Below, one piece after another: positions 19,291 through 44,429 of a stretch of 64,000 bases of DNA. Each line of letters begins with the position of its first letter. Position 1 is the stretch's first letter. This DNA is from an uncultured Acidobacteriaceae bacterium (GTDB taxonomy: Bacteria > Acidobacteriota > Terriglobia > Terriglobales > Acidobacteriaceae), in NCBI GenBank assembly GCA_963721155.1, contig CAVRID010000017.1:863-64862 (forward strand). The letters are read 5' to 3'. Below the pieces are notes generated by a model, which was given only the letters and a program-made list of their open reading frames with translations, did no database searches and was not told the DNA's origin. The position numbers and the translations under genes were made by a program.

Positions 19291-19591
19291 ACGGATACGA
19301 AAGATCGGCTGCTTACTCGTCGGTGATTCCGCATGTGTCCGTGGCAGTCAGCCATGATGGTTCATCGGAGCTTGCCAATACGAGACAATTGGGTGTCGCA
19401 ATTCATTCTCTCAGGATGGCCAAAGCTCGGCGAAATGATCTATTCCAGCGAGCACGTGTGTCTCATGCGAATGAACGGTGTATTGGGGTCATGTCTGGCC
19501 GATTGAGGAAGCGGATGCACCCTAAACAGTATTTGTAAGAAATTCAGAATCGCTGTTGATTCCGGGACGATCCCCGGCCGGAAGGCTTCGA

Positions 19592-20170: not shown

Positions 20171-20314
20171 ATCTGGACTCCCCAATTGTTGTTACGCCAG
20201 CTGCAATTTGCAGGCCTGCCACCTGCCATAAACGGTCATAAGAGCGTAACGTCTGTCTTGCCCGTCGCCTCTCGTAGCTTTTCGTCATTCGTCGGTAAAA
20301 GCGTAACAACTTCG

Positions 20315-21289: not shown

Positions 21290-21648
21290 ACAGTTCTCCC
21301 TATAGTGAGTGGCCCGAGTCAGTCGGAAGCCCGCGAGGCTGAAAGGGGTGCATTCATAAGGATAGACGCAGCGAGGATCCTTCTAACGTCAGCCTTCCCG
21401 CATCGACGCCTAACCCGACGCGGACAGAAAGCGAGGGCCCACCAGCTGTTCCTATGGAGTGCATGGGAGTTTCCACCTGCCGCTTCCTTCCCTTGTGGGC
21501 CGTGGTAATCGCGGCTGGCCCATAGCCACCTGCATTTGGGACGCCGTCAAGTTTCGCAGGGTATCAGACGGCCACGGTAAGGAGCCTTCACGGTCCAGAT
21601 CAGTGGTTTCCGAGATACCGAGCGCGAGCCAAGATTCCGGGCCACAGT

Positions 21649-24783: not shown

Positions 24784-24960
24784 GGAGCCCAATCCCCACC
24801 AAGACGGAGACGATTGGAAAGTAGAATTCTACTTGACAGCTCTCGCGAGGGAGGATAGCCTCACCGTCATTCTAATAAGAGTTCTCAATGCAGCTGGTCT
24901 GCCGGACCTGTAGTGCCATTAATGCAATCTATCAGGCTCTGACGAGGTGATCTAAGCTGT

Positions 24961-26535: not shown

Positions 26536-26570
26536 CCGGCGCACAGGTACAAAGACAAAGTCGGCTCAAC

Positions 26571-31043: not shown

Positions 31044-31120
31044 ATTGAACCACACGAGTTGACCGATTTATGGCATCGAGCCAGAAATTGGCTTGAATCA
31101 ATCAAGTGAAGGGAGAGTTT

Positions 31121-33046
31121 ATGAGCGTTCTTTCGCTTCCCAGAATTAATTTTCTCGGTGCCTGTGACTGGAACCCGAATACGGTTAACAACTCACCTAC
31201 GGTGTACGACGAAAGCACCGCCGAACCGGTCCCACAGAAAGGGATTCCCTTCGATCAATTCGTGCACTGGCTAACCCAGTTAAATCAGCAGGGTACCAGC
31301 CCGAATGGAAGCTGGAACGTGTACGGAGACCATTCCGCCACATTGGTAAACGCCATCGTAAAGACTTGCCAGCCTTCCCCGGCCAATGACCCGTTAATCG
31401 GAAAGCCCATTCAGATATTGGGTAACATACGTGGGAAGAATGCCACGCCGGCGCGTCTGGTGGATATAGATCCGTACGGCTCTACAACCTCGCAGATTTT
31501 CTACGATACGTTCAGCCTGGGCGATCAGACTCTCGGTTTCTCGGCCCATGCAGCCTGTCGAATGTTTTCGCGTTGGCCGAATTTTCAGCGAAATCTCCAA
31601 AAACTTCCGGTCGCCGGACCGATGGGCGTCATCTGGCACACAGCCGCGAAATCGTCCGATATCAAATGGTTCGGGGTGGAGCAATCGCCTACCTTACAGG
31701 CGCTGCAAAAGGCGGCGAATGCCCCTGGGAACCAGGGACTCGTCATGATATTTGCCGCTTATCGCACCCTTTACTACCAGAAAGCGACTTGGGCAGGGAA
31801 ACCGATCCAGAATGGAAAGGACCTGTCGACGGCGTATCAAGCGGGGTTTACGGACGGCAACCCAGCCGAGAGCATCATTGCCGGCACCATCGGCGTTTGG
31901 AAACAAGGCGAACTAGCCAGTGCGCCGATCGCCCGTGTGCTCGGGCCCGATGAGCCAGTCCTGCCTCCGCAGCCGGTGCTGTCCGCAAAGCGCGCCGTCC
32001 AGGAACTCGCGACGCAAGAGGTCGCAGTTGCCGAGAAATCTGTCACCTTGGGTCCTGCTTTAGCCGAAATCGATGATCAACGGCAGGTGGTGGTGCTGGA
32101 CCTGATTGCCACTTTTCCGGAGCAGAACTCCACCCTGGCAAAAGCCGACCTGGGTACCTTCCAGCTGCAGGTCCGCTCCGCCGATGGCACGGTCACACAA
32201 ATCGGACCGCCATTAACTCCGGCTGATTATGGTCAAACGGCGTACGAGGCGACCGCAGGTCTGGTCGAAGTCCCGTTCAAACCGGACCAGTTGCAAGCGT
32301 TGCAAACCGGCAGTCTGGAGATCGCACAACCAGGGAAGGAAGGCACACCCGCTCTCGCTGAGCAGTCTCTGGTGGCGGAGACCGATCAGCGGGGTGTGTA
32401 CGTCGATCAGAGCCAGACCCGGTCCATCACGATAAACGTCTACCAGAAGGGCCAGCTCGCAAGCGGACCGACCCAGCTCCAGATCCTGGTTGCGCAGTAT
32501 GACAACCAGGGTACGCTGATCACGAGTAGTCAGCAGCGGCTGGTGGAAGTGCTCGATCAACAAGGAAAGCCGCTAACCGGGGGCGTAGCCAGCGTGGACA
32601 ATGGAATTGCTTCCATCAAGGTCCGACCTCTGCAACCCGGCACGTGCTCCCTGGGATTCTTTCCATTTCAGGTGGGACAAGCGCTGCCGCAACCGCCCAG
32701 CAATGGATTCCCGGGTACGGGGGATTTCTACGCAGCTATTCGCACACTTCCCTTCGACAACAAGTTCGAGCACCTTCCACCCGACCAGGTGGTGGACTGG
32801 AACTTCGTCTACCAGCATGTTCTTCTCAACTTCGACGTGGTGTATCCCGTAATGTCGTTAATCATCAACCTGCACAATGAAAAGGCAATCGATTCGAGCG
32901 CTCCGGCCATCGAGCATGCAATCTCGCCGTCGCAGTTCGAGTCTACGCTGGCCATGCCCATCACGCGCGAGATGTCGGCGGGTAAACGAGCGCTCTTGCT
33001 CAAATATCTGCAGAACATTGGAAAAACTCCGAGCCCAACGCGCTAG
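31121..33046 (+). CDS. VioB/StaD/RebD N-terminal-module homologue (paralogue A2)
   Basis: ATG at 31121 follows AGGGAGAG. Motifs include 'MSVLSLPRINFLGACDWNPNTVNNSP', 'GVWKQGELASAP' and 'YPVMSLI...MPITREMSAGKRALLLKYL'. Confidence 0.7.
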   Translation: MSVLSLPRINFLGACDWNPNTVNNSPTVYDESTAEPVPQKGIPFDQFVHWLTQLNQQGTSPNGSWNVYGDHSATLVNAIVKTCQPSPANDPLIGKPIQILGNIRGKNATPARLVDIDPYGSTTSQIFYDTFSLGDQTLGFSAHAACRMFSRWPNFQRNLQKLPVAGPMGVIWHTAAKSSDIKWFGVEQSPTLQALQKAANAPGNQGLVMIFAAYRTLYYQKATWAGKPIQNGKDLSTAYQAGFTDGNPAESIIAGTIGVWKQGELASAPIARVLGPDEPVLPPQPVLSAKRAVQELATQEVAVAEKSVTLGPALAEIDDQRQVVVLDLIATFPEQNSTLAKADLGTFQLQVRSADGTVTQIGPPLTPADYGQTAYEATAGLVEVPFKPDQLQALQTGSLEIAQPGKEGTPALAEQSLVAETDQRGVYVDQSQTRSITINVYQKGQLASGPTQLQILVAQYDNQGTLITSSQQRLVEVLDQQGKPLTGGVASVDNGIASIKVRPLQPGTCSLGFFPFQVGQALPQPPSNGFPGTGDFYAAIRTLPFDNKFEHLPPDQVVDWNFVYQHVLLNFDVVYPVMSLIINLHNEKAIDSSAPAIEHAISPSQFESTLAMPITREMSAGKRALLLKYLQNIGKTPSPTR

Positions 33047-33087
33047 GCGGTGAATAACGCAAACTAGCGGTGGAAAGGACGGTCGCT

Positions 33088-35469
33088 ATGAGTCTCATTG
33101 ACTCGAATCGCCAACCAAAGACCCCTGCTCTACACCCGGCCGTGGATAACTGGGATCCCGGGAAGACACTTAAGATCGAAGCCACCGAGAACCCACTTCC
33201 GAACTCCACCCTCGGCGATCTGGGAGTGGCCGCCAGCGTCACAGGAAGTGCGAACTTTCCGTTGACGCTGCTGGTCCTTCCACTCGCCGAAGATGGATTG
33301 ACCGGGATCGATACGTCTTCCGTGCGAGTTTTTCGATGTGACAAAAAGAATAAGCGATATGCGCCGGTTTGGAATTCAGGTATTAACGTTGCCCACGGTT
33401 TTGTTTGGGCCAAGATCCAGCAGCCTGGCATCTTCGTAGCCATCGGTTTGCCGGCCGATCTGGTTTTGAAGGAGTGCCTGCAGCTCGTCTCGCAGCAGCG
33501 CGCTTATTTGGACTCCGGTGCAGCCGAGGAAGTAACCGCATTGACCAAGAGCACCATTACTCAGTTCCTCGATCTGCCGGAAGAGGACTTGGCAACGCTA
33601 CGCAAGATAACCGCAGCGAGCGCGTTAAATTCAGGTGTGAAGCCGGCCTCGCCGAACCAAGTTGAACGAGGGGAAGGTTTTCACGTCACCGGCTTTACCC
33701 TGCCTGGTGGCGGCTCGGTCGCTCAATTGAAGGATCGCATTGCCAAACTGAAAATCCCCGCGGATGGCTTGCCGGAAGAAAGCCTTTTCCTTGGGCCCGA
33801 CCGCCAGGCGATGGGAGTACCACTTTACACACAACTGGAACACGATTCCCTGTTGACATCGAAAATCAGTGCCATGGTTATTCCGGAGTGGAAATCGTGG
33901 CCTCCGATTCATTTTCCATTCTGCTGGTTGTTCTCGCGGAACTGGCCGATGTACCACCACGACCACGACCATAGCGGTCACGCCTCCGGCTGCAGTGGTC
34001 TTACCAGCACGACGGTACAGAATTTGGTCCTCAAGAAATCCGTCGCGGTTCCGGAAGGCGGTACCTTCGTTTCGATTCCCACGATCGCGCACGGCAAGGT
34101 CTACATTGGTACTACCCAAGTAGGCGGCGCAGACGGAGGTTACCTATACAAGATAGACATCGCCACCGGCAACATCGATCACAAGTTCGGAGTTCCCAAC
34201 CGTTTTCCGGCCTACTTCCCAGGGATCGGCGGGTCACCGGCAGTGGCACATGGCCGGATCTACTTCACTGGCCTGCCCGGCTACGTCTATTGTCTGGATG
34301 CGGCCACCTTCGCTGTAGTGTGGTCCTTGGACTTGCGAAATCCCAGCACGGCCATGAACCAGCCAGTCACGAATCCGGTCGCCGATAGCTGGAGTTCACC
34401 AGTAGTGGTGCACGACCGGGTGTACATCGGTTGTGGTGAAGGCGAATCGCAGGCATACGGATTCGTCTATTGCCTCAATGCTCACAGCGGTCATGTGATA
34501 TGGCTGTATAGCACCGACCAGTTCGTCACTGGAACGGACAACTCACCGAACGTTATTCCTGCCGGCGCGGTTGGCTTGCATCCGATGCCAGCCGGGTTCA
34601 CTTCCCATCCGGACCCCCCGCAGTTAGGCGCCTCGGTGTGGTCGTCCTGCGCCTACGATTCCAGGCTTCATCGCATCTATTTTGGCCTCGGCAATTCCTC
34701 CACTGGCGGAGGCCCCCCCGGCGCCATCGACTACAAGTACGGCAGCGGCGTCTTATCCCTGGATGCTCACACGGGAGCGTTCAAGGGCTATTTTCAGCCG
34801 AATCCGTCGGACAGCTACTATCCGGGCGATAGCGACATCGACATTTCCAGCAGTCCGACGCTCTTCAGCCACGGCCACCACCGAGTTTTGGCGATCGGCA
34901 GCAAGAGCGGCGCGTTCATGCTGTTGAACGCTGACACTATGAAGAAGATGCATATTCGTAACGTGCTGCCGCGCGACGCGGCGACGGGTGGCCCACTACC
35001 GAACGTCGACACCGGCGGAAAGACTGGCGGAGAGAACATGTACGGTGTCTTTGGCACCGCCGCCGTCCACCACGGCCTAGGCCGCTTGTTCGTGGGTGTC
35101 GGTGGCTATGCCGGCATAGGCGATGTGTCCACGACCCCGTTCTTGAGAGCGTTCCACTGGAACAACCTCCACGATGCCTGGCACATGGCCAACCAAACGA
35201 TTAACGGCCATCCGGTGGCGAAGTACACGGTACCGGTGCCGCCTATGTACCAGACCGGCGAGGCTGGATGCAGTTCGCCGGCTGTGGTGAACGACGTCGT
35301 CTTTGTATCCACTAACCTGTCGGCGCTGTACGCATTGGACGCCAACACCGGCCTACCCTTGTGGTCGGCTCCGGGACTACCTGGCGGTCAATTCATCCTG
35401 GGACCTGCCATCTACGGAAATCATGTGGTGGTGGGCGCCGGCGGAACGGTGTTTATTTACTCAACCTAA
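33088..35469 (+). CDS. PQQ-like (BamB-type) beta-propeller repeat protein with a ~300-aa unassigned N-terminal extension (B1)
   Basis: Motifs include 'GKVYIGT', 'HGRIYFTGLPGYVYCLDAATFAVVWS' and 'SSPAVVNDVVFVSTNLSALYALDANTGLPLWS'. No signal peptide is evident. Confidence 0.75.
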   Translation: MSLIDSNRQPKTPALHPAVDNWDPGKTLKIEATENPLPNSTLGDLGVAASVTGSANFPLTLLVLPLAEDGLTGIDTSSVRVFRCDKKNKRYAPVWNSGINVAHGFVWAKIQQPGIFVAIGLPADLVLKECLQLVSQQRAYLDSGAAEEVTALTKSTITQFLDLPEEDLATLRKITAASALNSGVKPASPNQVERGEGFHVTGFTLPGGGSVAQLKDRIAKLKIPADGLPEESLFLGPDRQAMGVPLYTQLEHDSLLTSKISAMVIPEWKSWPPIHFPFCWLFSRNWPMYHHDHDHSGHASGCSGLTSTTVQNLVLKKSVAVPEGGTFVSIPTIAHGKVYIGTTQVGGADGGYLYKIDIATGNIDHKFGVPNRFPAYFPGIGGSPAVAHGRIYFTGLPGYVYCLDAATFAVVWSLDLRNPSTAMNQPVTNPVADSWSSPVVVHDRVYIGCGEGESQAYGFVYCLNAHSGHVIWLYSTDQFVTGTDNSPNVIPAGAVGLHPMPAGFTSHPDPPQLGASVWSSCAYDSRLHRIYFGLGNSSTGGGPPGAIDYKYGSGVLSLDAHTGAFKGYFQPNPSDSYYPGDSDIDISSSPTLFSHGHHRVLAIGSKSGAFMLLNADTMKKMHIRNVLPRDAATGGPLPNVDTGGKTGGENMYGVFGTAAVHHGLGRLFVGVGGYAGIGDVSTTPFLRAFHWNNLHDAWHMANQTINGHPVAKYTVPVPPMYQTGEAGCSSPAVVNDVVFVSTNLSALYALDANTGLPLWSAPGLPGGQFILGPAIYGNHVVVGAGGTVFIYST

Positions 35470-35543: not shown

Positions 35544-36029
35544 ATGATTATCATGGGCCATGACAACGATGGTGCAATCTTGATTGTCGAATGGTGCAAT
35601 GACTGGCTAAAGCAGTACATCCGAGACTGTGGTGCCGTCGCGGGTTCCGTCCACTTGCGGGAGAGCAGCGGACTGCGGCTCTCGGCGGCGGTCAATATCC
35701 CTGAGAAAGTTCAACAGATTGTCGAGTGGGTACCGTCTGGCAAAGGTATGGCGGGACAGGCGCTCGCTCGAGGCGAACCTATTTTCACCTGCAATCTAAA
35801 AGATGATTCGTCGGGTGCCATACGGCCGGGCGCGAAGGCGGTCGATGCGCAAGCTGCTGTAGCGTTGCCGGTGCGGGATGAAGCAGGGACTATTGTCGCG
35901 GTGGTTGGGATAGCGTTCGCCCAAGAGCGTTCGTTCTCAGCAGCGGATATCACAGGCTATCTCGTCAAAGCGAAGAGTTTAGTGGCCCAAATCGGAAGTA
36001 GTCCTAGTGCGTCTGCGACCAAAAGTTGA
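35544..36029 (+). CDS. Stand-alone GAF domain protein
   Basis: ATG at 35544. 'VPSGKGMAGQALARGEPIF' and 'AVALPVRDEAGTIVAVVGIAF' show the GAF/fRMsr-like topology. Confidence 0.6.
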   Translation: MIIMGHDNDGAILIVEWCNDWLKQYIRDCGAVAGSVHLRESSGLRLSAAVNIPEKVQQIVEWVPSGKGMAGQALARGEPIFTCNLKDDSSGAIRPGAKAVDAQAAVALPVRDEAGTIVAVVGIAFAQERSFSAADITGYLVKAKSLVAQIGSSPSASATKS

Positions 36030-36066
36030 TCGCTAACCAAGGTATTGTTTTCAGGAATGGACGAAA

Positions 36067-37902
36067 ATGACTTATCTCAATCCGCTTAGGCTGCACTTTG
36101 CCGGGACATTTCAGGCGGCACCTTCTACCGTAAACAACGATCCTTCTCATTTCAATAATGAGACATTTCTCCCGCGTTACCGGAAATACGGCGCGGGGAC
36201 CACGGACGGTTGGTGGAACCCACGCGGCAATGCCGATTTCCGGCTCATCGGCTGCAAGGTAACTGCCGCTTGGCAGGCTGGAAAGCCTGTGTCTGGCGAT
36301 AGCATCTTGCAGTGCTTGATCGCCGATTCCGACACCCGCGTCGCCGGAAAACTTGTGGACTTGGACCCCGAGCAGCAAATGGTTTCGGAAATCTGGGGCT
36401 TGGAAGTCCGTATTTGCACAACGGGCGGAAGCAAGCTGGTGAAGGGACGGTTCCATCCTGCGGCTTTTGCGGACATCTGGCTGCGATTCCCAACCGGGAA
36501 ACCTGACAGCTTCTACGGGGCCATGTACCAATCGGTGCTGACCGATTTGGAATGGGGCGATGTATCCGGATCGCCGTTTCTCACAGCGCTGAAAGGCGCT
36601 GCTTCCACCGGACGGCTCTCCATCAAGTTCAACGTTGACGGCTACGACGACAACGTGACATTGCCGACGTTTACACGGGGACGGATCGTAGGAACGATAG
36701 GGCCGGCGGCGGCCGACGAGCCAGCGCATCTGATCCTGGGTCGCCATTTTCTGGCAACTCCACAGAATCCGATGAACTGTTGCGTCGCCACAGTGGATGA
36801 ATCGGCAGGACTCATCTACGTGGACTTGGGGAACGCGCTTCCCACCAGTGCAGCGGGTGGTCCCATGCAGGATCTCGGACAACTGTCTCTGGCCTGCATT
36901 TTTCCCAACGATTTCAGCAACAATCCCGTGCCGCCCCTGCCTCTGGGCACAATTGCCTACCTGGATGCAAATTGGTATGCCACGACCGCCGGTGTCGTCG
37001 CCGTGCCCGTGACCGGCGTCAACCTGCAGAAGACTCAGTCCAACGCACTCGGTTTGCTGTTGACTACGTCCGGGCCGCCGACCGACGGCATCACCGAACC
37101 GCTCGGCGGCTTGTACGTTCGCGCCGATCAATTTGTTTACCGTCTCGAACCCGGAGAGACTGCGGAGGCAAAACTGTACGCCACGGCTTTTGGCAAGCCA
37201 TTGGCCGGCGCGACCGTGGTGAGCATCTTCGATCCAAGCGAACTTCAAGGACAACCAGTCAAAGACGGCGACACGGCGCCCCCTGTCGCTACGCCGCCCG
37301 GCGCCATTAGCTTTCCGTGCCGCTTGGTAACCGATTCTCACGGCATTGTCACCCTTCCAATCGGAACCTCGGACCCTGGCAATCCGCGCACCTACATCGA
37401 CGGGCAAGTCTATGGCGTAAGGCCCATGCTGGAAACCACAATGCCGCCGCCAGTTGGGTATCCCTTCAATGGTACCGAATTCATCACCATCCTTTTGTGG
37501 AGCGAGTACAAATTTGCCGATCCCCCGACGTGGCAACGATTGAAGCCGGTCTTCCAGCAGTACGCGAATCTCTATCCGGTAATGGATACGTTCTTGGATC
37601 TCGCGGACTATGAATCGGTGTGCAACCACAGCGGCCTGCTGCGGCTGGCGTTCGGATTGCCGGTTTCGGATCCAAACTCTATGCCGGTCACACGGGACCT
37701 TTCGCCGTCCAAACGGGAAGCGATCTTGCAATGGCTGGAACACACGGGTCCGGACGGCAAGCCGGCCCTCGGCACGCCGTCCCCTGCCGCTGTTGCCAAA
37801 GCCGCATCGAAGGCAGCCGAAACGGGACCGCCTTCCGCCGCAATGAAAGGTGGCAAGGGCGCGGCCATGGCTCGCAGAATGTTTCTTAAGCGCACAACCT
37901 AA
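36067..37902 (+). CDS. VioB/StaD/RebD N-terminal-module homologue (paralogue A3)
   Basis: Motifs include 'MTYLNPLRLHFAGTFQAAPSTVNNDPSHF' and the C-terminal 'YPVMDTFL...MPVTRDLSPSKREAILQWL'. A ferritin-like gene follows 15 nt downstream. Confidence 0.7.
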   Translation: MTYLNPLRLHFAGTFQAAPSTVNNDPSHFNNETFLPRYRKYGAGTTDGWWNPRGNADFRLIGCKVTAAWQAGKPVSGDSILQCLIADSDTRVAGKLVDLDPEQQMVSEIWGLEVRICTTGGSKLVKGRFHPAAFADIWLRFPTGKPDSFYGAMYQSVLTDLEWGDVSGSPFLTALKGAASTGRLSIKFNVDGYDDNVTLPTFTRGRIVGTIGPAAADEPAHLILGRHFLATPQNPMNCCVATVDESAGLIYVDLGNALPTSAAGGPMQDLGQLSLACIFPNDFSNNPVPPLPLGTIAYLDANWYATTAGVVAVPVTGVNLQKTQSNALGLLLTTSGPPTDGITEPLGGLYVRADQFVYRLEPGETAEAKLYATAFGKPLAGATVVSIFDPSELQGQPVKDGDTAPPVATPPGAISFPCRLVTDSHGIVTLPIGTSDPGNPRTYIDGQVYGVRPMLETTMPPPVGYPFNGTEFITILLWSEYKFADPPTWQRLKPVFQQYANLYPVMDTFLDLADYESVCNHSGLLRLAFGLPVSDPNSMPVTRDLSPSKREAILQWLEHTGPDGKPALGTPSPAAVAKAASKAAETGPPSAAMKGGKGAAMARRMFLKRTT

Positions 37903-37917
37903 TTCACGAGAGGCCCT

Positions 37918-38988
37918 ATGATTCTTCTCAAATCGGAAGTCGCCGCGAATCTTGACGGCACACTGCCTGGCGTCCGTCGTGCGCTTCAGCAAGCTATCGA
38001 GTTGGAGCACGCGACGTTGCCCACCTATTTGTACGCGCTTTACTCGCTCAAGCCAGACACGAACGAGCGCATCGCCACTCTGATGCTCTCCGTGATCATG
38101 GAAGAGATGCTCCACATGGCGCTCTCTTGCAACATCCTCAACGCCGTGGGTGGACATCCAGTAATCGACAAGGCCGATTTTATTCCGGCGTATCCAGGCC
38201 CGTTGCCGGGCGGGATCGAGTCCAACCTCGAAGTGCCGTTGGCCCCTTTCTCCCTGGCTTTGATTGAAAACGTCTTCATGGTGATTGAAGAACCGGAAGA
38301 TCCACAGCATTTCCCGGTGAAAACAGAGGCGCTGGCGGCCGAAGCGCAAATGACCATTGGTCAGTTCTACGACCGCCTCAAGCGTTGCATTATCGAACTG
38401 TCGGAGAAGGGCAACATATTCACGGGCAATGCAAGCTATCAATTGACGAAGGGCTTGCCGGGATTGATCGCGGTTCACGACGTAAGTACGGCTTCTGATG
38501 CCATCGATACGATCGTGCGGCAAGGGGAAGGCACGCACACATCTCCACTCGATCCGCAGCACACGCCAGCACATTACTATCGTTACGCCGAGATCTTTTA
38601 TGGAAAGACACTGGTACCGAACACGACTCCTCCGCCGGACTTCGCCTATGCAGGCGAGGCGATACCGTTCGATCCCGACGGTGTCTATCCGGTAGTAACA
38701 AATCCGGCTCTGGATGGCTACGCGCCGAAGTCGGCGGCCTCCTTCAACAACGACACGTTCAATTACACTTACACAAGCCTGCTCTGTACGCTTCACATCC
38801 TCTTCAATGGCCATCCTGACCGGCTGATCGCGGCCATCGGCTTGATGGAGTCGCTCAAGGAGCTAGCGTTCGCAATGATGTCGGCGATTCCGGCGGGGCC
38901 AGCCGTGCCAGGCCTTAATGCGGGACCCAGCTTCCAGTACAATCCCACGAATCCTCCTGGATCGTCTAAAGCTATTAAAGAGAACTAA
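37918..38988 (+). CDS. Ferritin-like domain protein of the VioB/RebD C-terminal type (F1)
   Basis: Two ExxH motifs are present in 'ALQQAIELEHATLPTYLYALYS' and 'IMEEMLHMALSCNILNAVGG'. 'QGEGTHTSPLD...HYYRYAEIFYG' is also present. Confidence 0.75.
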   Translation: MILLKSEVAANLDGTLPGVRRALQQAIELEHATLPTYLYALYSLKPDTNERIATLMLSVIMEEMLHMALSCNILNAVGGHPVIDKADFIPAYPGPLPGGIESNLEVPLAPFSLALIENVFMVIEEPEDPQHFPVKTEALAAEAQMTIGQFYDRLKRCIIELSEKGNIFTGNASYQLTKGLPGLIAVHDVSTASDAIDTIVRQGEGTHTSPLDPQHTPAHYYRYAEIFYGKTLVPNTTPPPDFAYAGEAIPFDPDGVYPVVTNPALDGYAPKSAASFNNDTFNYTYTSLLCTLHILFNGHPDRLIAAIGLMESLKELAFAMMSAIPAGPAVPGLNAGPSFQYNPTNPPGSSKAIKEN

Positions 38989-39037: not shown

Positions 39038-41008
39038 ATGATGTTCGGCCGTCTTCAGTTTCTGATTGTCGTCCTATATTTGGTCGCCTTTGTGCCGTTA
39101 TGCCAGGCCCACACGCCGACCGAGCCTCCCTCTCCGCAAAGCAAGGATGATTCAGCGTCCAGCAAAACGACTCCTAACCCTCCGAGCACCACTAAGCCTA
39201 CTCTCGTGACTGTCGTCACCGTCACTGGTGAACCTCTGACCGTCTCGCTGGCTCCAGCCTCGGCCAGTGTGGTTGATGACGAAGAGATGAGGGACGCTCA
39301 CGCACTCACTTCCGCCGATATCATGCGCGCTGTGCCGTTCGTCAACCTTGCACAAAATGGCAGCGCCGGTTCTCTCAGCACCATCACGATTCGCGGAGGC
39401 AAGCCCAATCAGGTGCTGGTGATGATCGACGGTATCCCGGCGAACGATCTAAGCAACCTGCTCGGAGGGGCCTTCGATTTCTCCAGCCTACTCACTCATG
39501 ATGTCGAGCAGATTGAGGTGGTAAGCGGTCCATTATCTTCCGGCTACGGTTCAGAAGCCATGAGCGGGGTTGTCAATGTGATCACGAAGCCCACGCATTA
39601 CGAATCTAACCTCAGCGGCGGCATGGAGACTGGATCGTTCGGCACCGCGGGGGTGAACCTTGGAGCGGAAGGACTGAAAGGCCGGCTGGGATACAAGTTG
39701 TCGGGATCGTTTTTGCGGGTAGGGGAGCAAGTGGAATCCGACGCTTTCTCCACCAGCACGTTTTCCGTAGCCTCAGACTACGCTCACAGTTCGAACACCA
39801 TTGTGAGTTGGACGGCGCGGTGGATCCAATTCGACCGCTCAGGTCTCCCCGAAGGTGGAGGAGGGCCTGAGTTGTCAATCCTCAGAATCCCCAAGACCAG
39901 CAACTCCGGCAACATCCTGGGCGGCTTTGAAGTGCAACATCATTTCAACGATCTCTGGACGGTCAACATCGACGCCGATGTTTTCACGAGAGGTGAGCAC
40001 GCTTACACGCCCCCGATTCTCGATAGTCCTCATCCTTCCCCGGCATCGCAGCCCAGCACCGACACTTACACCCGGTTCACCCGTTCGCGGATGACTCTGC
40101 AGAACGTGTTCAACTTCAAGCCTAAGCTGCAAGGCCATTTCAATGTGCAAGGCGCGGACGAACTTGGATACAACAACACACTTATCCAAGCAGTTTATCC
40201 GTCGCACTTCAGCGAAAACAGGGGCATCTTTAATGCCAACGGCGATCTCGTTTACTCCACGCCAAGAATGACCGGAATGGTGGCCCTCGGGATCAATAAG
40301 ACTGCGGGATTCAACGTGCAGCTTGCGCCGCGGGTTGGCGCCGCTGTGCCGGCCGGAAAAAATACGATCATCAAGGCAAGTTGGGGGCAAGCCTTTCAGG
40401 TGCCTTCTTTGTATGCGCTCGGCAACCCTAACGTTGGCAATCCAAATCTCCAGCCGGAGAAACTGACGGGCATGGATGCAGGGGTGCAGCATCGTTTCGG
40501 CGAGAGATTTACTGTGTCGGGGACCTATTACTACAACCTCTTCTCAAACCTCATCGATTTCAGCTCGGTCGCTTTTCGCTTAGTCAATCGGTCACACGTG
40601 CGTACTGAAGGGGCCGAAACGGCAGTGTCATTAGCAGCACGCTGGATACAAGTGAGGGCCTGGGGATCATTTCTTGATTGGCAGATCGAGCCTGCAGGTG
40701 AGCCGTTGCGCGACCAGCCTGACTGGCAGGCCGGGTTCAGCCTCGATGCTAAGTTTCCCAAACAGATCAGAGCGTCCAGCACTACATTATGGGTGGGCAG
40801 GAGGTATGACTTCCAAGTACCTGCACCAACCATTCCCACCGTAGGAGGGTATTCCACGACAAACTTGGTAGCCGGATACTACGGGTTTCGGCATACCTCC
40901 CTATATGCCAGGATTGACAACCTTTTCAATGCGCGATTTCACGAATATCTTGGCTTTCCCAACCCCGGCATAGCCGCGCAAGTAGGCATTCAGTATCGCT
41001 TGCGATGA
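39038..41008 (+). CDS. TonB-dependent outer-membrane receptor
   Basis: The signal peptide is 'FLIVVLYLVAFVPLCQA'. A plug motif 'ITIRGGKPNQVLVMIDGIPAND' is followed by a ~500-aa beta-barrel region. Confidence 0.85.
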   Translation: MMFGRLQFLIVVLYLVAFVPLCQAHTPTEPPSPQSKDDSASSKTTPNPPSTTKPTLVTVVTVTGEPLTVSLAPASASVVDDEEMRDAHALTSADIMRAVPFVNLAQNGSAGSLSTITIRGGKPNQVLVMIDGIPANDLSNLLGGAFDFSSLLTHDVEQIEVVSGPLSSGYGSEAMSGVVNVITKPTHYESNLSGGMETGSFGTAGVNLGAEGLKGRLGYKLSGSFLRVGEQVESDAFSTSTFSVASDYAHSSNTIVSWTARWIQFDRSGLPEGGGGPELSILRIPKTSNSGNILGGFEVQHHFNDLWTVNIDADVFTRGEHAYTPPILDSPHPSPASQPSTDTYTRFTRSRMTLQNVFNFKPKLQGHFNVQGADELGYNNTLIQAVYPSHFSENRGIFNANGDLVYSTPRMTGMVALGINKTAGFNVQLAPRVGAAVPAGKNTIIKASWGQAFQVPSLYALGNPNVGNPNLQPEKLTGMDAGVQHRFGERFTVSGTYYYNLFSNLIDFSSVAFRLVNRSHVRTEGAETAVSLAARWIQVRAWGSFLDWQIEPAGEPLRDQPDWQAGFSLDAKFPKQIRASSTTLWVGRRYDFQVPAPTIPTVGGYSTTNLVAGYYGFRHTSLYARIDNLFNARFHEYLGFPNPGIAAQVGIQYRLR

Positions 41009-41111
41009 AAGGAATGCGATCGATCTCCATAGAATTGGTCTAGACGGGACGTCTTTCTTACGGGATACTCGTTAGCAATTTCGGATATTGCATCTGCGGC
41101 CTCGAGCACTC

Positions 41112-42152
41112 ATGATCCGGCTGAAACCACAACTATTCGCAGACCTGGACGGCACCGTAGAAGGATTGCGCCGGGCGTTGCAGAACGCGATAGAACTTGA
41201 GCACGCGACGATTCCTACTTATCTGTATGCGCTCTATTCGATTAAACCGGGAACTAACCAGGAGATTGCCGGCCTGATCAAATCGATCGTATCGGAAGAG
41301 ATGCTGCACATGGCGCTGGGCTGCAATATTCTCAATGCGCTTGGCGGCGCGCCGAAGATCGACGACCCCTGCTCCTTGCCAAAATATCCCGGGCCGCTTC
41401 CAGGCGGCGTGGAAAGTGACCTGATCGTGCCCCTGGCGCCATTTTCAAAGCAACTGGTGCAGGACACCTTCATGGTGATTGAAGAACCGGAAGAGCCGCT
41501 TCAATTTCCGGTTCGGGATTTTGCCGCGCTCAGCGTCGAAGAGCAGGTGACTATCGGCCAGTTCTACGCGAAAATCATCGAGCAGATTAAACAGCTCTCG
41601 GATGGGATTTTTACGGGTGATCCCAATAGGCAATTGACCACCGGGTTCAAGCCGCTCCAACAGATTCAGGTCAATAGCGTCGACACCGCGGTTGCGGCCA
41701 TTCAACTTATCATGCAACAGGGTGAAGGCACGACAACTTCTCCTCTGGCTCCGGGGCGAGAGCCAGCGCATTATTACCGCTTTGCGGAAATCTACTATGG
41801 CAGAAAGCTGATCCGTAATCCCGAGACGGCAACCGGGGCGCTGGAGTTCGTGTACGGGGGCCACAAGATCGAGTTCGATCCAGCGGGAGTCTCGCCCGTG
41901 ATCTCGAATCCGAACCGAAACACCTACGCTCCCGAATCGAAAGCGCGAAGTCTTAATGACGCGTTCAATCACACCTACACCGGCCTGCTGAAATCGCTGC
42001 AACTTGTCTTTAATGGAGAACCGGATCGACTCGGACCGGCTATCGGGCTGATGGAAGCGATGAAGGAACAGGCGCAGGTGATGATGTCAACCCAAACGGT
42101 TCAAGGCCAAACAGCTGGGCCCAGTTTTGAATACAGCCCGGTGAGTCCATAG
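41112..42152 (+). CDS. Ferritin-like domain protein of the VioB/RebD C-terminal type (F2, paralogue of F1)
   Basis: It is colinear with F1, with 'ALQNAIELEHATIPTYLYALYS', 'VSEEMLHMALGCNILNALGG' and 'QGEGTTTSPL...HYYRFAEIYYG'. Confidence 0.75.
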   Translation: MIRLKPQLFADLDGTVEGLRRALQNAIELEHATIPTYLYALYSIKPGTNQEIAGLIKSIVSEEMLHMALGCNILNALGGAPKIDDPCSLPKYPGPLPGGVESDLIVPLAPFSKQLVQDTFMVIEEPEEPLQFPVRDFAALSVEEQVTIGQFYAKIIEQIKQLSDGIFTGDPNRQLTTGFKPLQQIQVNSVDTAVAAIQLIMQQGEGTTTSPLAPGREPAHYYRFAEIYYGRKLIRNPETATGALEFVYGGHKIEFDPAGVSPVISNPNRNTYAPESKARSLNDAFNHTYTGLLKSLQLVFNGEPDRLGPAIGLMEAMKEQAQVMMSTQTVQGQTAGPSFEYSPVSP

Positions 42153-42160
42153 GTACGTTC

Positions 42161-43876
42161 ATGAGTAAAACGGATTGGTGGATGTACCACGGCGACGCCG
42201 CCCACACAGGGCTAGCGAAAGGTAGCCGAATAAACGCCCGCAATGCCGGGGAACTCAAGCTACTACATGACATCGATCTCCCGGGTCCGGTTCTTTCAGT
42301 GCCTGCGTTGGTGGATGGCTTCGTTTATGTGGGGCTCGCGAACAGCCACGACGCTCCTGGTGCGAATGGCGGACAGCTACTGAAAATCGACGTGACAACC
42401 GGTCAGACTGTCGCCAAATTTGAATGGGCAATCGACCCAGCGGACGGCGATAGTCACGGCTTCATGGGCATGGGCTGCACACCAGCAGTGATCACGAACC
42501 CAGCTGACGGGAAGGTCAACGTTTATTTCAGCGCCTTTAATGGCAAGCTCTACTGCCTGGCCGCCAGCGACTTGGAACCGGTCTGGGTCACAGACCTGAG
42601 AAACGCTGACCCTGCGCACAACCAACCGGTCTCGAACGTCGGGCCTGGCGCACCTCCGGCCGCAGGATGGAGTTCGCCGGTGGTCGCTACCGATGTTCTG
42701 AATGGTTGCGTCTTCGTCGGCATGGGGGAAGGCGAAAATCCCGCTCTGTTTGGCTTCGTTTTTTGTTTGGATATGACGACCGGCAACGTTAACTGGATGT
42801 ATTGCACCTGCCAATTTCAGGAAGGCATTGCCAATCGACCAAACGTTCTACCGCCTGCGGTCGTGAAGGGCGAACTCCCCTGGCCGTTTAGCGTCGGGCC
42901 TGTGAACCCGACGATTCGCGGATGCTCCGTGTGGTCTTCCATCGCATACGACGATTTGCTTGATCGCCTCTATTGTGCGACGGGCAACCCGGTGCCCGAC
43001 ACCACGTTACCCTCCAAGGGTTTTTCGAACGGCATTCTTGCCCTTGACGCAACCAGCGGAGAGTTCAGGGGATTCTTCCAGGCACCGCCGGAGAGCAGCT
43101 ATCGCGACACCGATGTTGACGTAGATTTCGGCGGCTCTCCAGTGCTGTTTACAAAGAACGGACGCCGATTTGTGGCCGCCGGATGCAAGAATGGCGGCTT
43201 CTTCGTGCTGGATGCGGTTACGATGGAATTAGCTGGTTGGCGACAACTGTTGCCGTACTACAACGACGGGAAGCGGATTCCGTCCGTAGATCCGCATATC
43301 GGACCCAATGATCCGCGGCTTGATCCGCTCGTACCGAACCGCATGTCGGAAGGCGAGGACCAGGAGAACTATTCTGGAACCTACAGCACCCCAGCTATCC
43401 ACGAAGATCTCGGCCGGATCTTCATTGGAATCGGTGGCAACAACTACCACAATGTGCAGGCGGGGATCGACTGCGCAACCACTCCGTTCCTTCGCGTCAT
43501 GGATTGGCAAACGCTTGACGATGCCTGGGAAATGGACAACAGCAATCCCAGGCTGTATGTCCACGCTCAGCCGCCCATGTATCGAACCCCTGGAGAGTCT
43601 GGCCTGAGTTCGCCCGCAGTGGTTAACGACGTTGTCTTTTTTTCTACGTCGAAAATCGCTTTATACGCTTTCGATGCCTGGAGCGGGAAGCCGCTATGGG
43701 AAGACCAATTGGGTGAGCAGACGGGTGGGATGAACGGCGGGTATGGATACTGCCTCGGCCCGGCCATTTGGAGCGATTTCGTTGTAGCAGGGGCGCTCGT
43801 ATTTGGCAAGCGCGGTGGGGTACTGCGGATTTATGCACTGCCCGACCGCGAAAGCCGTAAGTCAGGTGGCCAATGA
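42161..43876 (+). CDS. PQQ-like (BamB-type) beta-propeller repeat protein (B2, paralogue of the B1 C-terminal part)
   Basis: Motifs include 'WWMYHGDAAHTG', 'DGFVYVGL', 'GKLYCLAASDLEPVW' and 'SSPAVVNDVVFFSTSKIALYAFDAWSGKPLW'. No signal peptide is evident. Confidence 0.75.
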   Translation: MSKTDWWMYHGDAAHTGLAKGSRINARNAGELKLLHDIDLPGPVLSVPALVDGFVYVGLANSHDAPGANGGQLLKIDVTTGQTVAKFEWAIDPADGDSHGFMGMGCTPAVITNPADGKVNVYFSAFNGKLYCLAASDLEPVWVTDLRNADPAHNQPVSNVGPGAPPAAGWSSPVVATDVLNGCVFVGMGEGENPALFGFVFCLDMTTGNVNWMYCTCQFQEGIANRPNVLPPAVVKGELPWPFSVGPVNPTIRGCSVWSSIAYDDLLDRLYCATGNPVPDTTLPSKGFSNGILALDATSGEFRGFFQAPPESSYRDTDVDVDFGGSPVLFTKNGRRFVAAGCKNGGFFVLDAVTMELAGWRQLLPYYNDGKRIPSVDPHIGPNDPRLDPLVPNRMSEGEDQENYSGTYSTPAIHEDLGRIFIGIGGNNYHNVQAGIDCATTPFLRVMDWQTLDDAWEMDNSNPRLYVHAQPPMYRTPGESGLSSPAVVNDVVFFSTSKIALYAFDAWSGKPLWEDQLGEQTGGMNGGYGYCLGPAIWSDFVVAGALVFGKRGGVLRIYALPDRESRKSGGQ

Positions 43877-44427
43877 TCGCGACGCTCCTGCTGTTCGGCG
43901 TTTTGGCCGGCCTGGACAACTTACAGGTCTGCTCTTCCATCGGGCTGCTTCCCCTGTCCAGAGTGCGCATGCGTTTATTGGCGGTGGGCTTCATGGTGTG
44001 CGAGATTGCTGCGCCACTGGCGGGATTTCTAATTGGCCATGCGGCACTGGCGCTAGTCAAGCCTTATGCCCGGATGGCTGGGCCGTTAATGACGATGCTG
44101 TGTGGCGCCGCGGTTTTGGCGGCGGCGCTATGGGGCGAGCGCGAAACTGATTCAGTGAAAGCTAACCGCTTCCTCCTTGGGCTGCCTCTTTCGTTGAGTC
44201 TTGACAATGTCGTGGCTGGGGCAGGGGTGAGTTCTATGCATTGTGACGCTTGGACAGCGGCTCTGTCCATCGGGCTGGTGAGCGGCGGAATGTCGTGCGT
44301 AGGGCTTTACGGAGCAGCGTTGTTGCGCCATTCGTTCCAACGGATAATACCGATTCGCGTCGAACCGCTGATGGGCGCATACCTGTGTGCACTGGCGGTG
44401 CGCATGTTGCTGGTGGGCAGGGCCTAG
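43873..44427 (+). CDS. MntP/YtaF-like (DUF204 x2) membrane protein, putative Mn2+/metal exporter
   Basis: Two DUF204-type motifs, 'AGLDNLQV' and 'SLSLDNVVAGAGV', align by eye with E. coli MntP 'SMDAFA' and 'SLDAMAVGVG'. A TM2 Glu lies in 'VCEIAAPLAG'. There is a 4-nt overlap with the upstream gene. Confidence 0.55.
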   Translation: MIATLLLFGVLAGLDNLQVCSSIGLLPLSRVRMRLLAVGFMVCEIAAPLAGFLIGHAALALVKPYARMAGPLMTMLCGAAVLAAALWGERETDSVKANRFLLGLPLSLSLDNVVAGAGVSSMHCDAWTAALSIGLVSGGMSCVGLYGAALLRHSFQRIIPIRVEPLMGAYLCALAVRMLLVGRA

Positions 44428-44429
44428 CG

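What the first reader, a model, noticed from the sequence alone, without database searches (positions are those of the whole stretch)
36067..38988. Gene-level fission of a VioB-like enzyme exactly at the N-module/ferritin-like boundary (A3 + F1)
A3 (611 aa) ends 15 nt before F1 (356 aa). Their summed length and order (N-module, then ferritin-like module) reproduce the single-chain VioB/StaD architecture. The A3 C-terminus ('MPVTRDLSPSKREAILQWLEH...') is followed by a low-complexity Ala/Pro/Lys-rich tail. This tail looks like a former interdomain linker. A two-subunit version of the enzyme would allow combinatorial pairing with the other A and F paralogues.
Basis: partly seen in the sequence, partly recalled or inferred. 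Interest (0 to 1): 0.75.

Follow-up and report, generated by a model that had tools for sequence, protein, structure and literature searches.

The report
Two-gene relative of the VioB enzyme
Two adjacent genes together match the two halves of the pigment and antibiotic enzyme VioB, but the split is the normal inherited form of a large, unstudied bacterial enzyme family, not a break that happened in this genome.

Summary
A3 (36067-37902, 611 aa) ends in TAA, and F1 (37918-38988, 356 aa, PF12902) starts 15 nt later behind a GAGAGG ribosome-binding site.

Profile-profile comparison shows that A3 is homologous to the whole VioB N-module (E 3e-28 to 7e-42). F1 is homologous to VioB 589-946 (E 4e-26). 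The two genes are colinear with VioB, and the gene boundary falls on the VioB inter-module junction.

The "fission" reading is only partly right.
- The separate A->F arrangement is the rule in this family. It holds for 83 of 85 evaluable pairs in genomes of at least 10 phyla. The median gap is 10 nt, and 27 pairs have 4-nt overlaps.
- A3 lies inside a large clade in which every member is split.
- Fused and split forms have interconverted several times. VioB/StaD is a small fused branch that itself contains split members.
- The A3 tail is not a leftover linker. 41 of 43 full-length fused relatives lack it. It ends in a conserved GGKxAAxxRR motif, found in 71 of 79 A3-type genes.

Most likely A3 and F1 are two co-translated subunits of an uncharacterised VioB-superfamily metallo-oxidase. 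The substrate is unknown, and no violacein or indolocarbazole genes lie nearby. Interest is moderate.

The parts
36067..37902 (+). A3: stand-alone homologue of the VioB/StaD N-terminal module (611 aa)
   Evidence: ORF. No Pfam or NCBIfam hit. More than 1786 homologues, nearly all 600-650 aa stand-alone proteins. hhalign against the VioB/StaD profile gives prob 99.8-100%, E 3e-28 to 7e-42, over 525 columns. AF2 model has pLDDT 89.4 and pTM 0.90.
36067..37506 (+). A3 residues 1-480: beta-rich body made of stacked beta-sandwich domains
   Evidence: DSSP of the AF2 model. Foldseek against the PDB finds only weak multi-Ig/macroglobulin-type matches (TM <= 0.15), so no solved homologue exists. Residues conserved in all three clades here: R8, F11, G13, N23, N51, D98, E218, R226, Y298, E344.
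37531..37740 (+). A3 residues 489-558: C-terminal helical subdomain, the part most similar to VioB
   Evidence: Helices 489-558 in the model. BLASTP A3 493-583 ~ VioB 509-599, E 1e-6. HMM match E 9.5e-13. M506, M539, P540, T542 and R543 are conserved in all clades.
37745..37899 (+). A3 residues 560-611: clade-specific tail, an Ala/Pro-rich spacer followed by a terminal helix
   Evidence: pLDDT 41-68, helix 597-610. Tail median 53 aa in 79 genome loci. Absent from 41 of 43 fused relatives, from A1/A2 and from the split VioB-like P0201/P0203.
37852..37878 (+). Conserved terminal motif G596-K597-x-x-A600-x-x-R603-R604 (GKGAAMARR)
   Evidence: G596, K597, A600 and R603 are at least 90% conserved among 118 sequences. 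The motif G[KR]xx[AS]xx[RK] lies in the last 32 aa of 71 of 79 A3-type genes.
37900..37902 (+). A3 stop codon TAA, in frame with F1
   Evidence: Invariant in four independent assemblies.
37903..37917 (+). 15-nt intergenic spacer with Shine-Dalgarno-like GAGAGG (37908-37913)
   Evidence: Spacers are 15, 15, 17 and 15 nt in the four aligned assemblies. Family-wide median gap is 10 nt.
37918..38988 (+). F1: stand-alone ferritin-like module (PF12902), homologue of the VioB C-terminal module
   Evidence: PF12902 E 1.4e-65. hhalign against the VioB family gives prob 99.7%, E 3.6e-26, F1 6-352 ~ VioB 589-946. PDB 3hl1 at E 1e-10. E30, E63, H66, E124, E204 and H219 are conserved with VioB. More than 2328 homologues, and the top 120 are all stand-alone proteins of about 345 aa.
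39038..41008 (+). TonB-dependent receptor (BtuB-like), a recurrent neighbour
   Evidence: Plug and barrel domains. Homologous receptors occur in 11 of the loci, including L008, L088 and L089.
41088..42152 (+). F2: second ferritin-like paralogue, 59% identical to F1, belonging to an 'F-propeller' module
   Evidence: PF12902 E 1.3e-69. Its nearest relatives are F genes that precede a propeller gene, in L001 and L022.
42161..43876 (+). PQQ-like beta-propeller (Prop2), no signal peptide
   Evidence: The F-propeller pairing recurs in L001, L022, L064, L069, L076 and L080.
44250..45896 (+). GSDH/NHL-like propeller protein that travels with the F-propeller module
   Evidence: Weak GSDH hit. Homologues in L001, L069, L076 and L080.
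29097..33046 (+). A1 and A2: tandem paralogues of a different, tail-less A clade, 21-23% identical to A3
   Evidence: A2 543-640 hits TIGR04492 VioB 487-584 at E 2e-17. Relatives of this clade have F upstream in F->A order (L007 and L085).
33070..35469 (+). PQQ-like beta-propeller (Prop1) with an N-terminal extension of about 280 aa
35361..36029 (+). GAF-domain protein directly upstream of A3 (true start probably downstream of 35361)
   Evidence: GAF_2 E 2.8e-11. A 147-aa GAF gene sits in the same position in L089.

Best explanation
A3 and F1 are the two subunits of a two-gene member of the VioB/StaD/RebD enzyme superfamily. A3 supplies the beta-rich N-module and its C-terminal helical subdomain. 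F1 supplies the ferritin-like helical module, with a conserved set of four Glu and two His that resembles a dimetal site. The genes are co-transcribed and translated back to back, and the products most likely assemble into one oxidase equivalent to single-chain VioB. The separate-gene state was inherited from a deep ancestor of a very large family found in many phyla. It did not arise here. Single-chain forms, VioB/StaD included, are repeated fusions or less common states of the same module pair. The 50-residue A3 tail is an extension specific to the A3-type clade, a disordered spacer plus a conserved basic terminal helix, and not a linker relic. I infer that it docks onto F1 or another partner. 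The substrate is not known. The pairing with amino-acid oxidases in some genomes, and the VioA-VioB precedent, suggest oxidative chemistry on an amino-acid-derived imine, enamine or aromatic compound. Shown: homology, colinearity, boundary position, conservation of the split, co-inheritance, motif conservation. Inferred: heteromer formation, metal or haem use, tail function, substrate class.
For: Homology and colinearity:
- hhalign of the A family against the VioB/StaD family gives prob 99.8-100%, E 3e-28 (local) and 7e-42 (global), A3 1-608 ~ VioB 1-618.
- hhalign of the F family against the VioB family gives 99.7%, E 3.6e-26, F1 6-352 ~ VioB 589-946.
- 34 columns are conserved along the whole A module in all clades.
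- E30, E63-M-x-H66, E124, Q-G-E204-G and H219 are shared between F and VioB.

The split is the rule:
- There are 83 split A->F pairs against 2 fused in genome and metagenome loci. The median gap is 10 nt, 27 pairs have 4-nt ATGA overlaps and 4 have 1-nt overlaps. The taxa span Acidobacteriota, Chloroflexota, Chlorobiota, Planctomycetota, Actinomycetota, Bacteroidota, Pseudomonadota, Verrucomicrobiota, Myxococcota and Gemmatimonadota.
- One of the two fused cases (L014) has a further frameshift inside F, so it is probably an assembly artefact.
- The stop codon is invariant in four assemblies.

Functional linkage:
- Natural fused relatives exist and are reproducible across assemblies.
- A and F pairwise distances correlate at r = 0.88 over 70 pairs, against a permuted maximum of 0.20.

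Polarity:
- A3 lies in an all-split crown clade.
- Fitch parsimony on the NJ tree gives 7 changes and a split root when rooted on the A1/A2 clade.
- That outgroup clade uses the reverse order, F->A.

Tail:
- It is absent in 41 of 43 fused representatives.
- The motif is present in 71 of 79 A3-type genes.

Substrate hint:
- A flavin amine oxidase lies directly upstream of A in Hymenobacter (L023) and in L013.
- LodA/LodB-like amino-acid oxidase genes lie next to A-F in L023, L048, L052 and L040.
Against: - No direct evidence of a complex. The AF2 model of the natural fusion P0056 was of low confidence (pLDDT 68.9, pTM 0.57), so module packing and tail docking remain unresolved.
- The trees are neighbour-joining without bootstrap, and the root is assumed. 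An ancient fission at the base of the A3-type clade cannot be excluded.
- 'A-only' cluster representatives could include truncated gene calls.
- The window contains no amino-acid oxidase, and such neighbours occur in only about 10% of loci.
- The commonest neighbour is an ABM + glyoxalase/VOC protein, in 36 loci, whose role is unknown.
- The split VioB-like pair P0201/P0203 has no tail, so a tail is not needed for a split enzyme.
- A has no universally conserved His or Cys, so the haem site known for VioB/RebD cannot be placed.
Confidence: 0.78

Rival explanations
1. Ancient fission: the ancestor of the whole family was a single fused VioB-like chain, and the A3-type clade descends from one old fission followed by acquisition of the tail.
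For: Fused forms are numerous and widespread: 45 of the top 147 representatives, including two sizeable fused clades that branch below the A3 crown clade. A fission inside the fused VioB/StaD clade evidently happened (P0201/P0203 nested), so fission is feasible in this family.
Against: The basal branches of the A3-like superclade and the whole A1/A2-type clade are split. The latter uses the reverse gene order F->A, which a simple fission cannot produce. Observed recent transitions in the A3 crown are fusions by stop loss that keep the tail (P0056, P0325). The representative list was ranked in a way that favours fused proteins.
Confidence: 0.17
2. Recent, local gene fission in this genome or lineage.
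For: A3 and F1 are in the same frame and separated by a single TAA, which is what a nonsense mutation in a fused gene would leave.
Against: All close relatives (94%, 81% and 50-80% identity) have the same split, with their own spacers, frames and ribosome-binding sites. The frame relation across the family is spread over 0, 1 and 2 (25, 19 and 39 pairs). F1 has the N-terminal segment (MILLKSE...) typical of stand-alone F proteins, and A3 has the conserved tail of stand-alone A proteins.
Confidence: 0.02
3. Assembly or sequencing artefact, or a pseudogene: really one gene.
For: None beyond the shared frame.
Against: The TAA is invariant in four independent assemblies from different samples and methods. 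One has a 17-nt spacer that puts F out of frame. Both proteins are full length and conserved.
Confidence: 0.01
4. A3 and F1 are merely co-transcribed and act as separate enzymes or partners of other proteins, for example the propellers or the TonB receptor, without forming a VioB-like unit.
For: F paralogues occur without an adjacent A, in F-propeller modules such as F2-Prop2. A1 and A2 have no adjacent F. PDB 3hl1 is a stand-alone PF12902 protein.
Against: For the A3-type, adjacency to F is near-universal, with translational-coupling overlaps. Fusions recur independently. The distance matrices are tightly correlated.
Confidence: 0.08

Closest known systems
VioB (iminophenyl-pyruvate dimer synthase, TIGR04492), violacein pathway
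   Same: Same two modules in the same order. A3 is homologous to VioB 1-~578 and F1 to VioB 589-946. They share invariant residues in both modules, such as the YP(V/F)M and MPxTR(D/E)LS motifs, EEMxH, QGEG and the H219 equivalent.
   Different: Two polypeptides instead of one chain of about 1000 aa. Only about 20-27% identity, and scores far below the TIGR04492 cut-off (A3 none, A2 62 bits, F2 21 bits against 1250). A3 has an extra 50-aa tail. It lacks the VioB inserts and the C-terminal extension of about 50 aa (VioB 947-998). The window has no vioA, vioC, vioD or vioE. The haem b and catalase activity reported for VioB (PMC9705886) are untested here.
StaD / RebD chromopyrrolic acid synthases (indolocarbazole pathways)
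   Same: Members of the same fused clade as VioB (P0187 and P0199 are named as such), so the same modular homology to A3 plus F1 applies.
   Different: Single chains of 1010-1140 aa that sit in bisindole clusters with an L-Trp oxidase. The window pair is split and has a different gene neighbourhood.
Split VioB-like pair P0201/P0203 plus a 417-aa PF12902 protein (locus L005)
   Same: Also a two-gene A->F arrangement, with a 4-nt overlap.
   Different: 42-43% identical to VioB and nested within the fused VioB/StaD clade. No tail. A gene fragment resembling an amine oxidase lies upstream. It is an independent split event, not the same lineage as A3/F1.
PDB 3hl1, 'ferritin like protein' (Caulobacter, structural genomics)
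   Same: Stand-alone PF12902 protein and the only solved relative of F1 (E 1e-10, F1 15-213).
   Different: No assigned function. More distant from F1 than F1's own family. Its first helix reads DLELW where F1 reads ELEHA. It has no known A partner.
Fused A3-like proteins of 870-1080 aa (e.g. P0329 in Ca. Angelobacter, P0327, P0338)
   Same: 38-49% identical to the A3-type fusion P0056 over both modules, in A>F order.
   Different: Single chain. The last A helix ('...WLDNPVYM') runs straight into the F module, with no Ala/Pro spacer and no GGK...RR motif.

Membership tests
VioB/StaD/RebD (TIGR04492 equivalog; chromopyrrolic-acid / IPA-imine-dimer synthases) | Score above the curated equivalog cut-off (1250 bits) | tested here: not met
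   A3 has no hit at E <= 0.01, and F1 has none. A2 scores 62 bits and F2 21 bits. A true VioB sequence scores 1924 bits.
VioB/StaD/RebD (TIGR04492 equivalog; chromopyrrolic-acid / IPA-imine-dimer synthases) | Single polypeptide of about 1000-1140 aa carrying both modules | tested here: not met
   Two ORFs separated by TAA plus 15 nt.
VioB/StaD/RebD (TIGR04492 equivalog; chromopyrrolic-acid / IPA-imine-dimer synthases) | Homologous N-module over its whole length | tested here: met
   hhalign prob 99.8-100%, E 3e-28 to 7e-42, 525 aligned columns. 34 conserved columns from residue 2 to 543.
VioB/StaD/RebD (TIGR04492 equivalog; chromopyrrolic-acid / IPA-imine-dimer synthases) | C-terminal PF12902 ferritin-like module | tested here: met
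   F1 matches PF12902 at 221.7 bits against a cut-off of 22.3. hhalign to VioB 589-946, E 3.6e-26.
VioB/StaD/RebD (TIGR04492 equivalog; chromopyrrolic-acid / IPA-imine-dimer synthases) | Clustered with an L-Trp oxidase (VioA/StaO/RebO) and the downstream pathway genes | tested here: not met
   No Amino_oxidase, VioE, VioC/D or P450 genes among the window ORFs scanned. Amine-oxidase or LodA-like neighbours occur in only about 8 of 80 related loci.
VioB/StaD/RebD (TIGR04492 equivalog; chromopyrrolic-acid / IPA-imine-dimer synthases) | Haem b cofactor; coupling of two IPA imine molecules; catalase side activity | not testable with these tools
   These properties are taken from the literature (PMC9705886). 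They need biochemistry.
Pfam PF12902 'Ferritin-like' | Match above the gathering threshold over the full domain | tested here: met
   F1 residues 23-227 match profile positions 1-220 of 221, E 1.4e-65.
Ferritin-like dimetal-carboxylate superfamily | Four-helix bundle with an E / ExxH / E / E...H ligand set | tested here: inconclusive
   E30, E63, H66, E124, E204 and H219 are conserved in the F family and in VioB, and the region is helical in the P0056 model. Neither the geometry of the site nor metal binding could be checked.
A3-type two-gene family (defined here: stand-alone A followed by stand-alone F) | A gene immediately followed by an F gene on the same strand, with a gap below about 50 nt | tested here: met
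   Window gap is 15 nt. There are 83 split pairs with a median gap of 10 nt.
A3-type two-gene family (defined here: stand-alone A followed by stand-alone F) | C-terminal tail of about 50 aa ending in G-K-x-x-A-x-x-R | tested here: met
   A3 596-603 reads GKGAAMAR. The motif occurs in 71 of 79 family members.

The most novel reading that the evidence does not exclude
The A3-type A-F pairs form a large, unannotated family of heteromeric metallo-oxidases, with thousands of sequence clusters in at least 10 phyla, including Pseudomonas cichorii, Ralstonia pickettii and Bradyrhizobium. VioB/StaD would then be only a small fused offshoot specialised for bisindoles. The family would carry out oxidative coupling or oxidation of amino-acid-derived imines or aromatic substrates outside known natural-product pathways. 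The conserved GGKxAAxxRR tail helix would be a dedicated docking element that holds the two subunits, or a third partner, together.
Probability: 0.35. Interest if true: 0.65.

Novelty: new variant of a known kind. Interest (0 to 1): 0.45.

Why it matters
VioB, StaD and RebD perform the key C-C coupling step in making violacein, staurosporine and rebeccamycin. None has a solved structure, and the N-terminal 600 residues have no Pfam model.

This work shows three things that could help:
- The N-module is a stand-alone protein family paired with PF12902 proteins across many phyla. That gives a natural two-piece system for expression, structure determination and dissection of which module binds haem, metal or substrate.
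- VioB-type enzymes become a minority form of a much larger uncharacterised enzyme family.
- The amino-acid-oxidase neighbours in some genomes give a starting point for finding new substrates.

For the window itself the result is sobering. The split is ordinary for the family and is not an evolutionary event caught in the act.

Tried and rejected
- Exact-sequence look-up of A3 found nothing on record.
- Sequence search of A3 against the PDB found no hit even at E 10.
- Foldseek of the confident A3 model against the PDB gave only generic multi-beta-sandwich matches with TM <= 0.15, so nothing could be learnt about the fold or a cofactor site.
- I tried to model the real A3+F1 pair by translating across the stop codon.
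- Mixed alignments of fused, A-only and F-only sequences (A2, A3) were unusable, because MAFFT stretched the A-only rows over the F part.
- The substitute model of the natural fusion P0056, built with remote VioB-like rows only, had low confidence (pLDDT 68.9, pTM 0.57). It says nothing reliable about the interface or the tail.
- I considered an encapsulin cargo-targeting peptide for the tail. No encapsulin gene is present among the ORFs scanned, and the motif differs from the ones I recall. Rejected.
- I considered a membrane-targeting amphipathic helix for the tail. This is not excluded. However, fused relatives carry no equivalent motif at their own C-termini, which fits an inter-subunit role better.
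- I considered the 936-aa antisense ORF 36004-38814. I judge it spurious, because the plus-strand proteins have thousands of homologues.
- Literature searches for VioB structure, PF12902 and 'iminophenyl-pyruvate dimer synthase' found no description of split homologues.
Full report
**Observation**

A3 is 36067-37902 (+, 611 aa). F1 is 37918-38988 (+, 356 aa). The junction reads ACC TAA ttcacGAGAGGccct ATG. F1 is in the same frame as A3, so the two are separated by a single in-frame stop and a 15-nt spacer with a Shine-Dalgarno-like GAGAGG. There is no frameshift.

The stop codon is genuine. It is invariant in four independent assemblies:
- the window;
- an identical Logan contig (L088);
- an ENA contig whose A protein is 94% identical (L089), where the spacer is 17 nt and F is therefore out of frame;
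- a Ca. Sulfotelmatobacter MAG at 81% identity (L008).

The best matches place the window in Acidobacteriota, near Ca. Sulfotelmatobacter. This placement is an inference from best hits.

**Homology to VioB**

A3 has no Pfam or NCBIfam hit. F1 matches PF12902 'Ferritin-like' at E 1.4e-65. The paralogue A2 (residues 543-640) matches the NCBIfam VioB model at positions 487-584 (E 2e-17), and F2 matches positions 666-831.

It scores 1924 bits over the full TIGR04492 model, against a cut-off of 1250. It is 91% identical to a database VioB. All VioB numbering below refers to this sequence.

Pairwise BLASTP gives colinear matches:

| Query | VioB region | E-value |
|---|---|---|
| A3 1-120 | 1-161 | 0.059 |
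| A3 493-583 | 509-599 | 1e-6 |
| F1 23-337 | 605-931 | 2e-7 |

The decisive test is profile against profile:
- A-family profile (119 sequences) against a VioB/StaD-family profile (real sequences): prob 99.8-100%, E 3e-28 local and 7e-42 global, 525 aligned columns, A3 1-608 on VioB 1-618.
- F-family profile against the same VioB/StaD-family profile: 99.7%, E 3.6e-26, F1 6-352 on VioB 589-946.

The conserved A core ends near residue 560, which corresponds to VioB ~578. A3+F1 therefore cover VioB 1-946 of 998, and the gene boundary falls on the roughly 10-residue inter-module connection. The homology claim stands.

**The split is the family norm**

A3 has more than 1786 homologues, and the best 120 are almost all stand-alone proteins of 600-650 aa annotated 'hypothetical'. 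F1 has more than 2328 homologues, and the best 120 are all stand-alone proteins of about 345 aa.

A scan of species-representative genomes returned 80 loci from at least 10 phyla. They include cultured Pseudomonas cichorii and P. capsici, Ralstonia pickettii, Bradyrhizobium, Cupriavidus, Hymenobacter, Dyadobacter and Spirosoma.

I called ORFs and searched them with my own A and F HMMs. The result was 83 separate A->F pairs:
- median gap 10 nt;
- 27 pairs with a 4-nt ATGA overlap and 4 with a 1-nt overlap;
- frame relations 0, 1 and 2 in 25, 19 and 39 pairs.

Only two were fused. One (L014/P0099) has a further frameshift inside F in a long-read MAG, so it is probably an artefact. The other (P0056) is an in-frame stop loss that still carries the tail and the translated spacer.

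A and F pairwise distances correlate at r = 0.88 over 70 pairs, against a permuted maximum of 0.20. The two genes are therefore inherited as a unit.

**Fused and split forms across the superfamily**

The VioB search returned only 84 clusters. These were the fused VioB/StaD/RebD proteins plus two stand-alone N-modules (P0201, P0203) that are 42-43% identical to VioB. P0201 is followed by a 417-aa PF12902 gene with a 4-nt overlap.

P0204, a relative of the window's A1/A2, has its F gene upstream in F->A order with a 4-nt overlap. L085 shows the same arrangement.

An exhaustive search with the fused P0056 found 4243 cluster representatives at 50% identity. Of the top 147, 96 were A-only, 45 were fused A>F and 6 were F-only. 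This ranking favours fused proteins. The fused forms are real. One 917-aa cluster occurs on at least 9 contigs, including Ca. Angelobacter.

Neighbour-joining trees of the N-module show three deep clades:
- the A3-type;
- the VioB/StaD clade, with the split P0201/P0203 nested inside it;
- the A1/A2-type.

With the representatives added and the tree rooted on the A1/A2-type, Fitch parsimony needs 7 fused/split changes and reconstructs a split root. A3 lies in a crown clade of at least 70 representatives that are all split. The fusions P0056 and P0325 are nested within it as singletons.

These trees have no bootstrap support and the root is assumed. My conclusions are:
- A local or recent fission is excluded.
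- A split ancestor with repeated fusions, including the one leading to VioB/StaD, is the more parsimonious reading.
- An ancient fission at the base of the A3 superclade remains possible.

**The tail**

A3 residues 560-611 consist of an Ala/Pro-rich spacer and a terminal helix. In the AF2 model the tail has pLDDT 41-68 and a helix at 597-610. The model as a whole has pLDDT 89.4 and pTM 0.90.

The very end of the tail is conserved. G596, K597, A600 and R603 are at least 90% conserved in 118 sequences. The motif G[KR]xx[AS]xx[RK] lies in the last 32 residues of 71 of 79 A3-type genes, and the other 8 carry variants. The median tail length is 53 aa.

Among full-length fused representatives, 41 of 43 lack the tail entirely. 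In these, the last A helix ('...WLDNPVYM') runs straight into the F module. Only the two stop-loss fusions retain the tail. Fused proteins do not carry the motif at their own C-terminus. A1/A2 and the split VioB-like P0201/P0203 also lack it.

The tail is therefore a functional extension specific to the A3-type clade, not a former interdomain linker. I infer a docking role towards F1 or another partner. A membrane-binding amphipathic helix is an untested alternative.

**Structure and candidate catalytic residues**

A3 is predicted with confidence as a beta-rich body (residues 1-480) plus a helical subdomain (489-558). The PDB holds no sequence relative. It holds no structural relative beyond generic beta-sandwich arrays with TM <= 0.15. 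This agrees with a review stating that the VioB structure is missing (PMC9705886).

Residues conserved in all three A clades are R8, D98, E218, R226, Y298, E344, M506, M539-P-x-T-R543 and several Gly/Pro. No His or Cys is universal.

In F, the residues E30, E63-M-x-H66, N72, E124, Y151, Q-G-E204-G, H219 and M310 are shared with VioB. Four Glu plus two His is the ligand count of ferritin-like dimetal sites. Whether they form one here is an inference.

An AF2 model of the fused P0056, built with only remote VioB-like rows, was of low confidence (pLDDT 68.9, pTM 0.57). It is uninformative about the interface.

**Genomic context and function**

The window lacks VioA-like or other bisindole pathway genes. 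Around A3-F1 lie:
- A1 and A2;
- a PQQ-like propeller;
- a GAF protein;
- a BtuB-like TonB receptor;
- F2;
- a second propeller;
- a GSDH/NHL-like propeller.

The set {A-F} + {TonB receptor, F, propeller, GSDH-like} recurs in Lysobacteraceae (L076, L080). Part of it recurs in L001, L022, L064 and L069. F2 is closest to the F genes that precede a propeller.

Across the 80 loci, the commonest neighbour after F is an ABM + glyoxalase/VOC protein directly upstream of A, found in 36 loci.

In a minority of loci, A-F sits next to amino-acid oxidases:
- a flavin amine oxidase (the Pfam family of VioA) directly upstream of A in Hymenobacter (L023) and in L013;
- a fragment resembling one upstream of the split VioB-like pair in L005;
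- LodA/LodB-like quinoprotein oxidase genes in L023, L048, L052 and L040.

A 2015 survey had also noted PF12902 genes beside fungal lodA/lodB-like genes (PMC4417212). This echoes the VioA->VioB logic, in which an oxidase makes an imine that the partner enzyme couples. It is the best available hint of substrate class, but it does not apply to the window itself.

**Verdict**

The evolutionary reading (fission here, tail as linker relic) is not supported.

What is present is an ordinary member of a very large, uncharacterised, two-gene branch of the VioB superfamily. That family is moderately interesting as enzyme 'dark matter' and as a natural two-piece model for VioB/StaD. The particular locus is not exceptional.

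Noticed in passing
window 29097-35469: A1 and A2 are tandem paralogues of a separate, tail-less A clade, 21-23% identical to A3 and closer to the VioB HMM than A3 is. They are followed by a PQQ-like propeller that carries an extra N-terminal region of about 280 aa. Relatives of this clade (L007, L085) have their ferritin-like gene upstream in F->A order with a 4-nt overlap, the reverse of A3-F1.
   Followed up: partly
window 39038-45896; L076 59-7309; L080 10-6679; L001 11879-16354: A module of TonB-dependent receptor, ferritin-like F, PQQ-like propeller and GSDH/NHL-like propeller recurs next to A-F pairs in Acidobacteriota and Lysobacteraceae. None of the soluble proteins has an obvious signal peptide. 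In L001 an MntP manganese exporter gene is inserted in the module.
   Followed up: partly
36 related loci, e.g. L087 7228-8004, L049 7105-7929, L071 7094-7957: A protein of about 250 aa that fuses an antibiotic-biosynthesis-monooxygenase (ABM) domain to a glyoxalase/VOC domain (VOC-only in some loci) sits directly upstream of A. It is the commonest neighbour after F. It is absent from the window, where a GAF protein occupies that position.
   Followed up: partly
L023 6179-15998 (Hymenobacter aranciens); L052 4334-11772 (Spirosoma oryzae); L048; L040; L013 4273-6294: A-F pairs lie next to amino-acid oxidase genes. A flavin amine oxidase (PF01593) is directly upstream of A, and LodA-like plus LodB-like quinoprotein oxidase genes are downstream. 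This parallels VioA-VioB and suggests substrates derived from amino acids.
   Followed up: partly
L046, L047, L063, L066, L068 (Ramlibacter, Lysobacteraceae): Two A-F pairs occur in tandem (A'-F'-[VOC]-A-F). The upstream pair forms its own sister clade to the A3-type and has a variant tail motif (GAGKTAVILQYEQR).
   Followed up: no
window 36004-38814 (- strand): A 936-aa ORF runs antisense across all of A3 and most of F1. It is almost certainly spurious, a long antisense ORF in GC-rich coding DNA, but a naive ORF caller would pick it as the longest.
   Followed up: partly
window 19556-27776: A run of genes encodes an NADPH-dependent FMN reductase, two luciferase-like monooxygenases, a shikimate-dehydrogenase-like protein and an acyl-CoA-dehydrogenase-like protein, preceded by an MFS transporter. 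This looks like an organosulfur or xenobiotic oxidation cluster directly upstream of the A1-A2 block.
   Followed up: no
window 4863-10250 (-), 13936-14637 (-), 60149-61639 (+): Copper-related genes are scattered through the window. They are a 1795-aa protein with a multicopper-oxidase domain, a SCO1/SenC protein and a three-domain multicopper oxidase. L001 shares the SCO1/SenC, cytochrome c-periplasmic binding protein and THOC3-like propeller genes in synteny with window 10511-14637.
   Followed up: no
L014 8001-10945 (P0099); L089 2360-4012: Long-read MAG assemblies show frameshift-like breaks. One is an apparent A-F 'fusion' with F split into two frames. The other is a PQQ-like propeller broken into three short ORFs. 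Apparent fusions or fissions in such assemblies need caution.
   Followed up: partly
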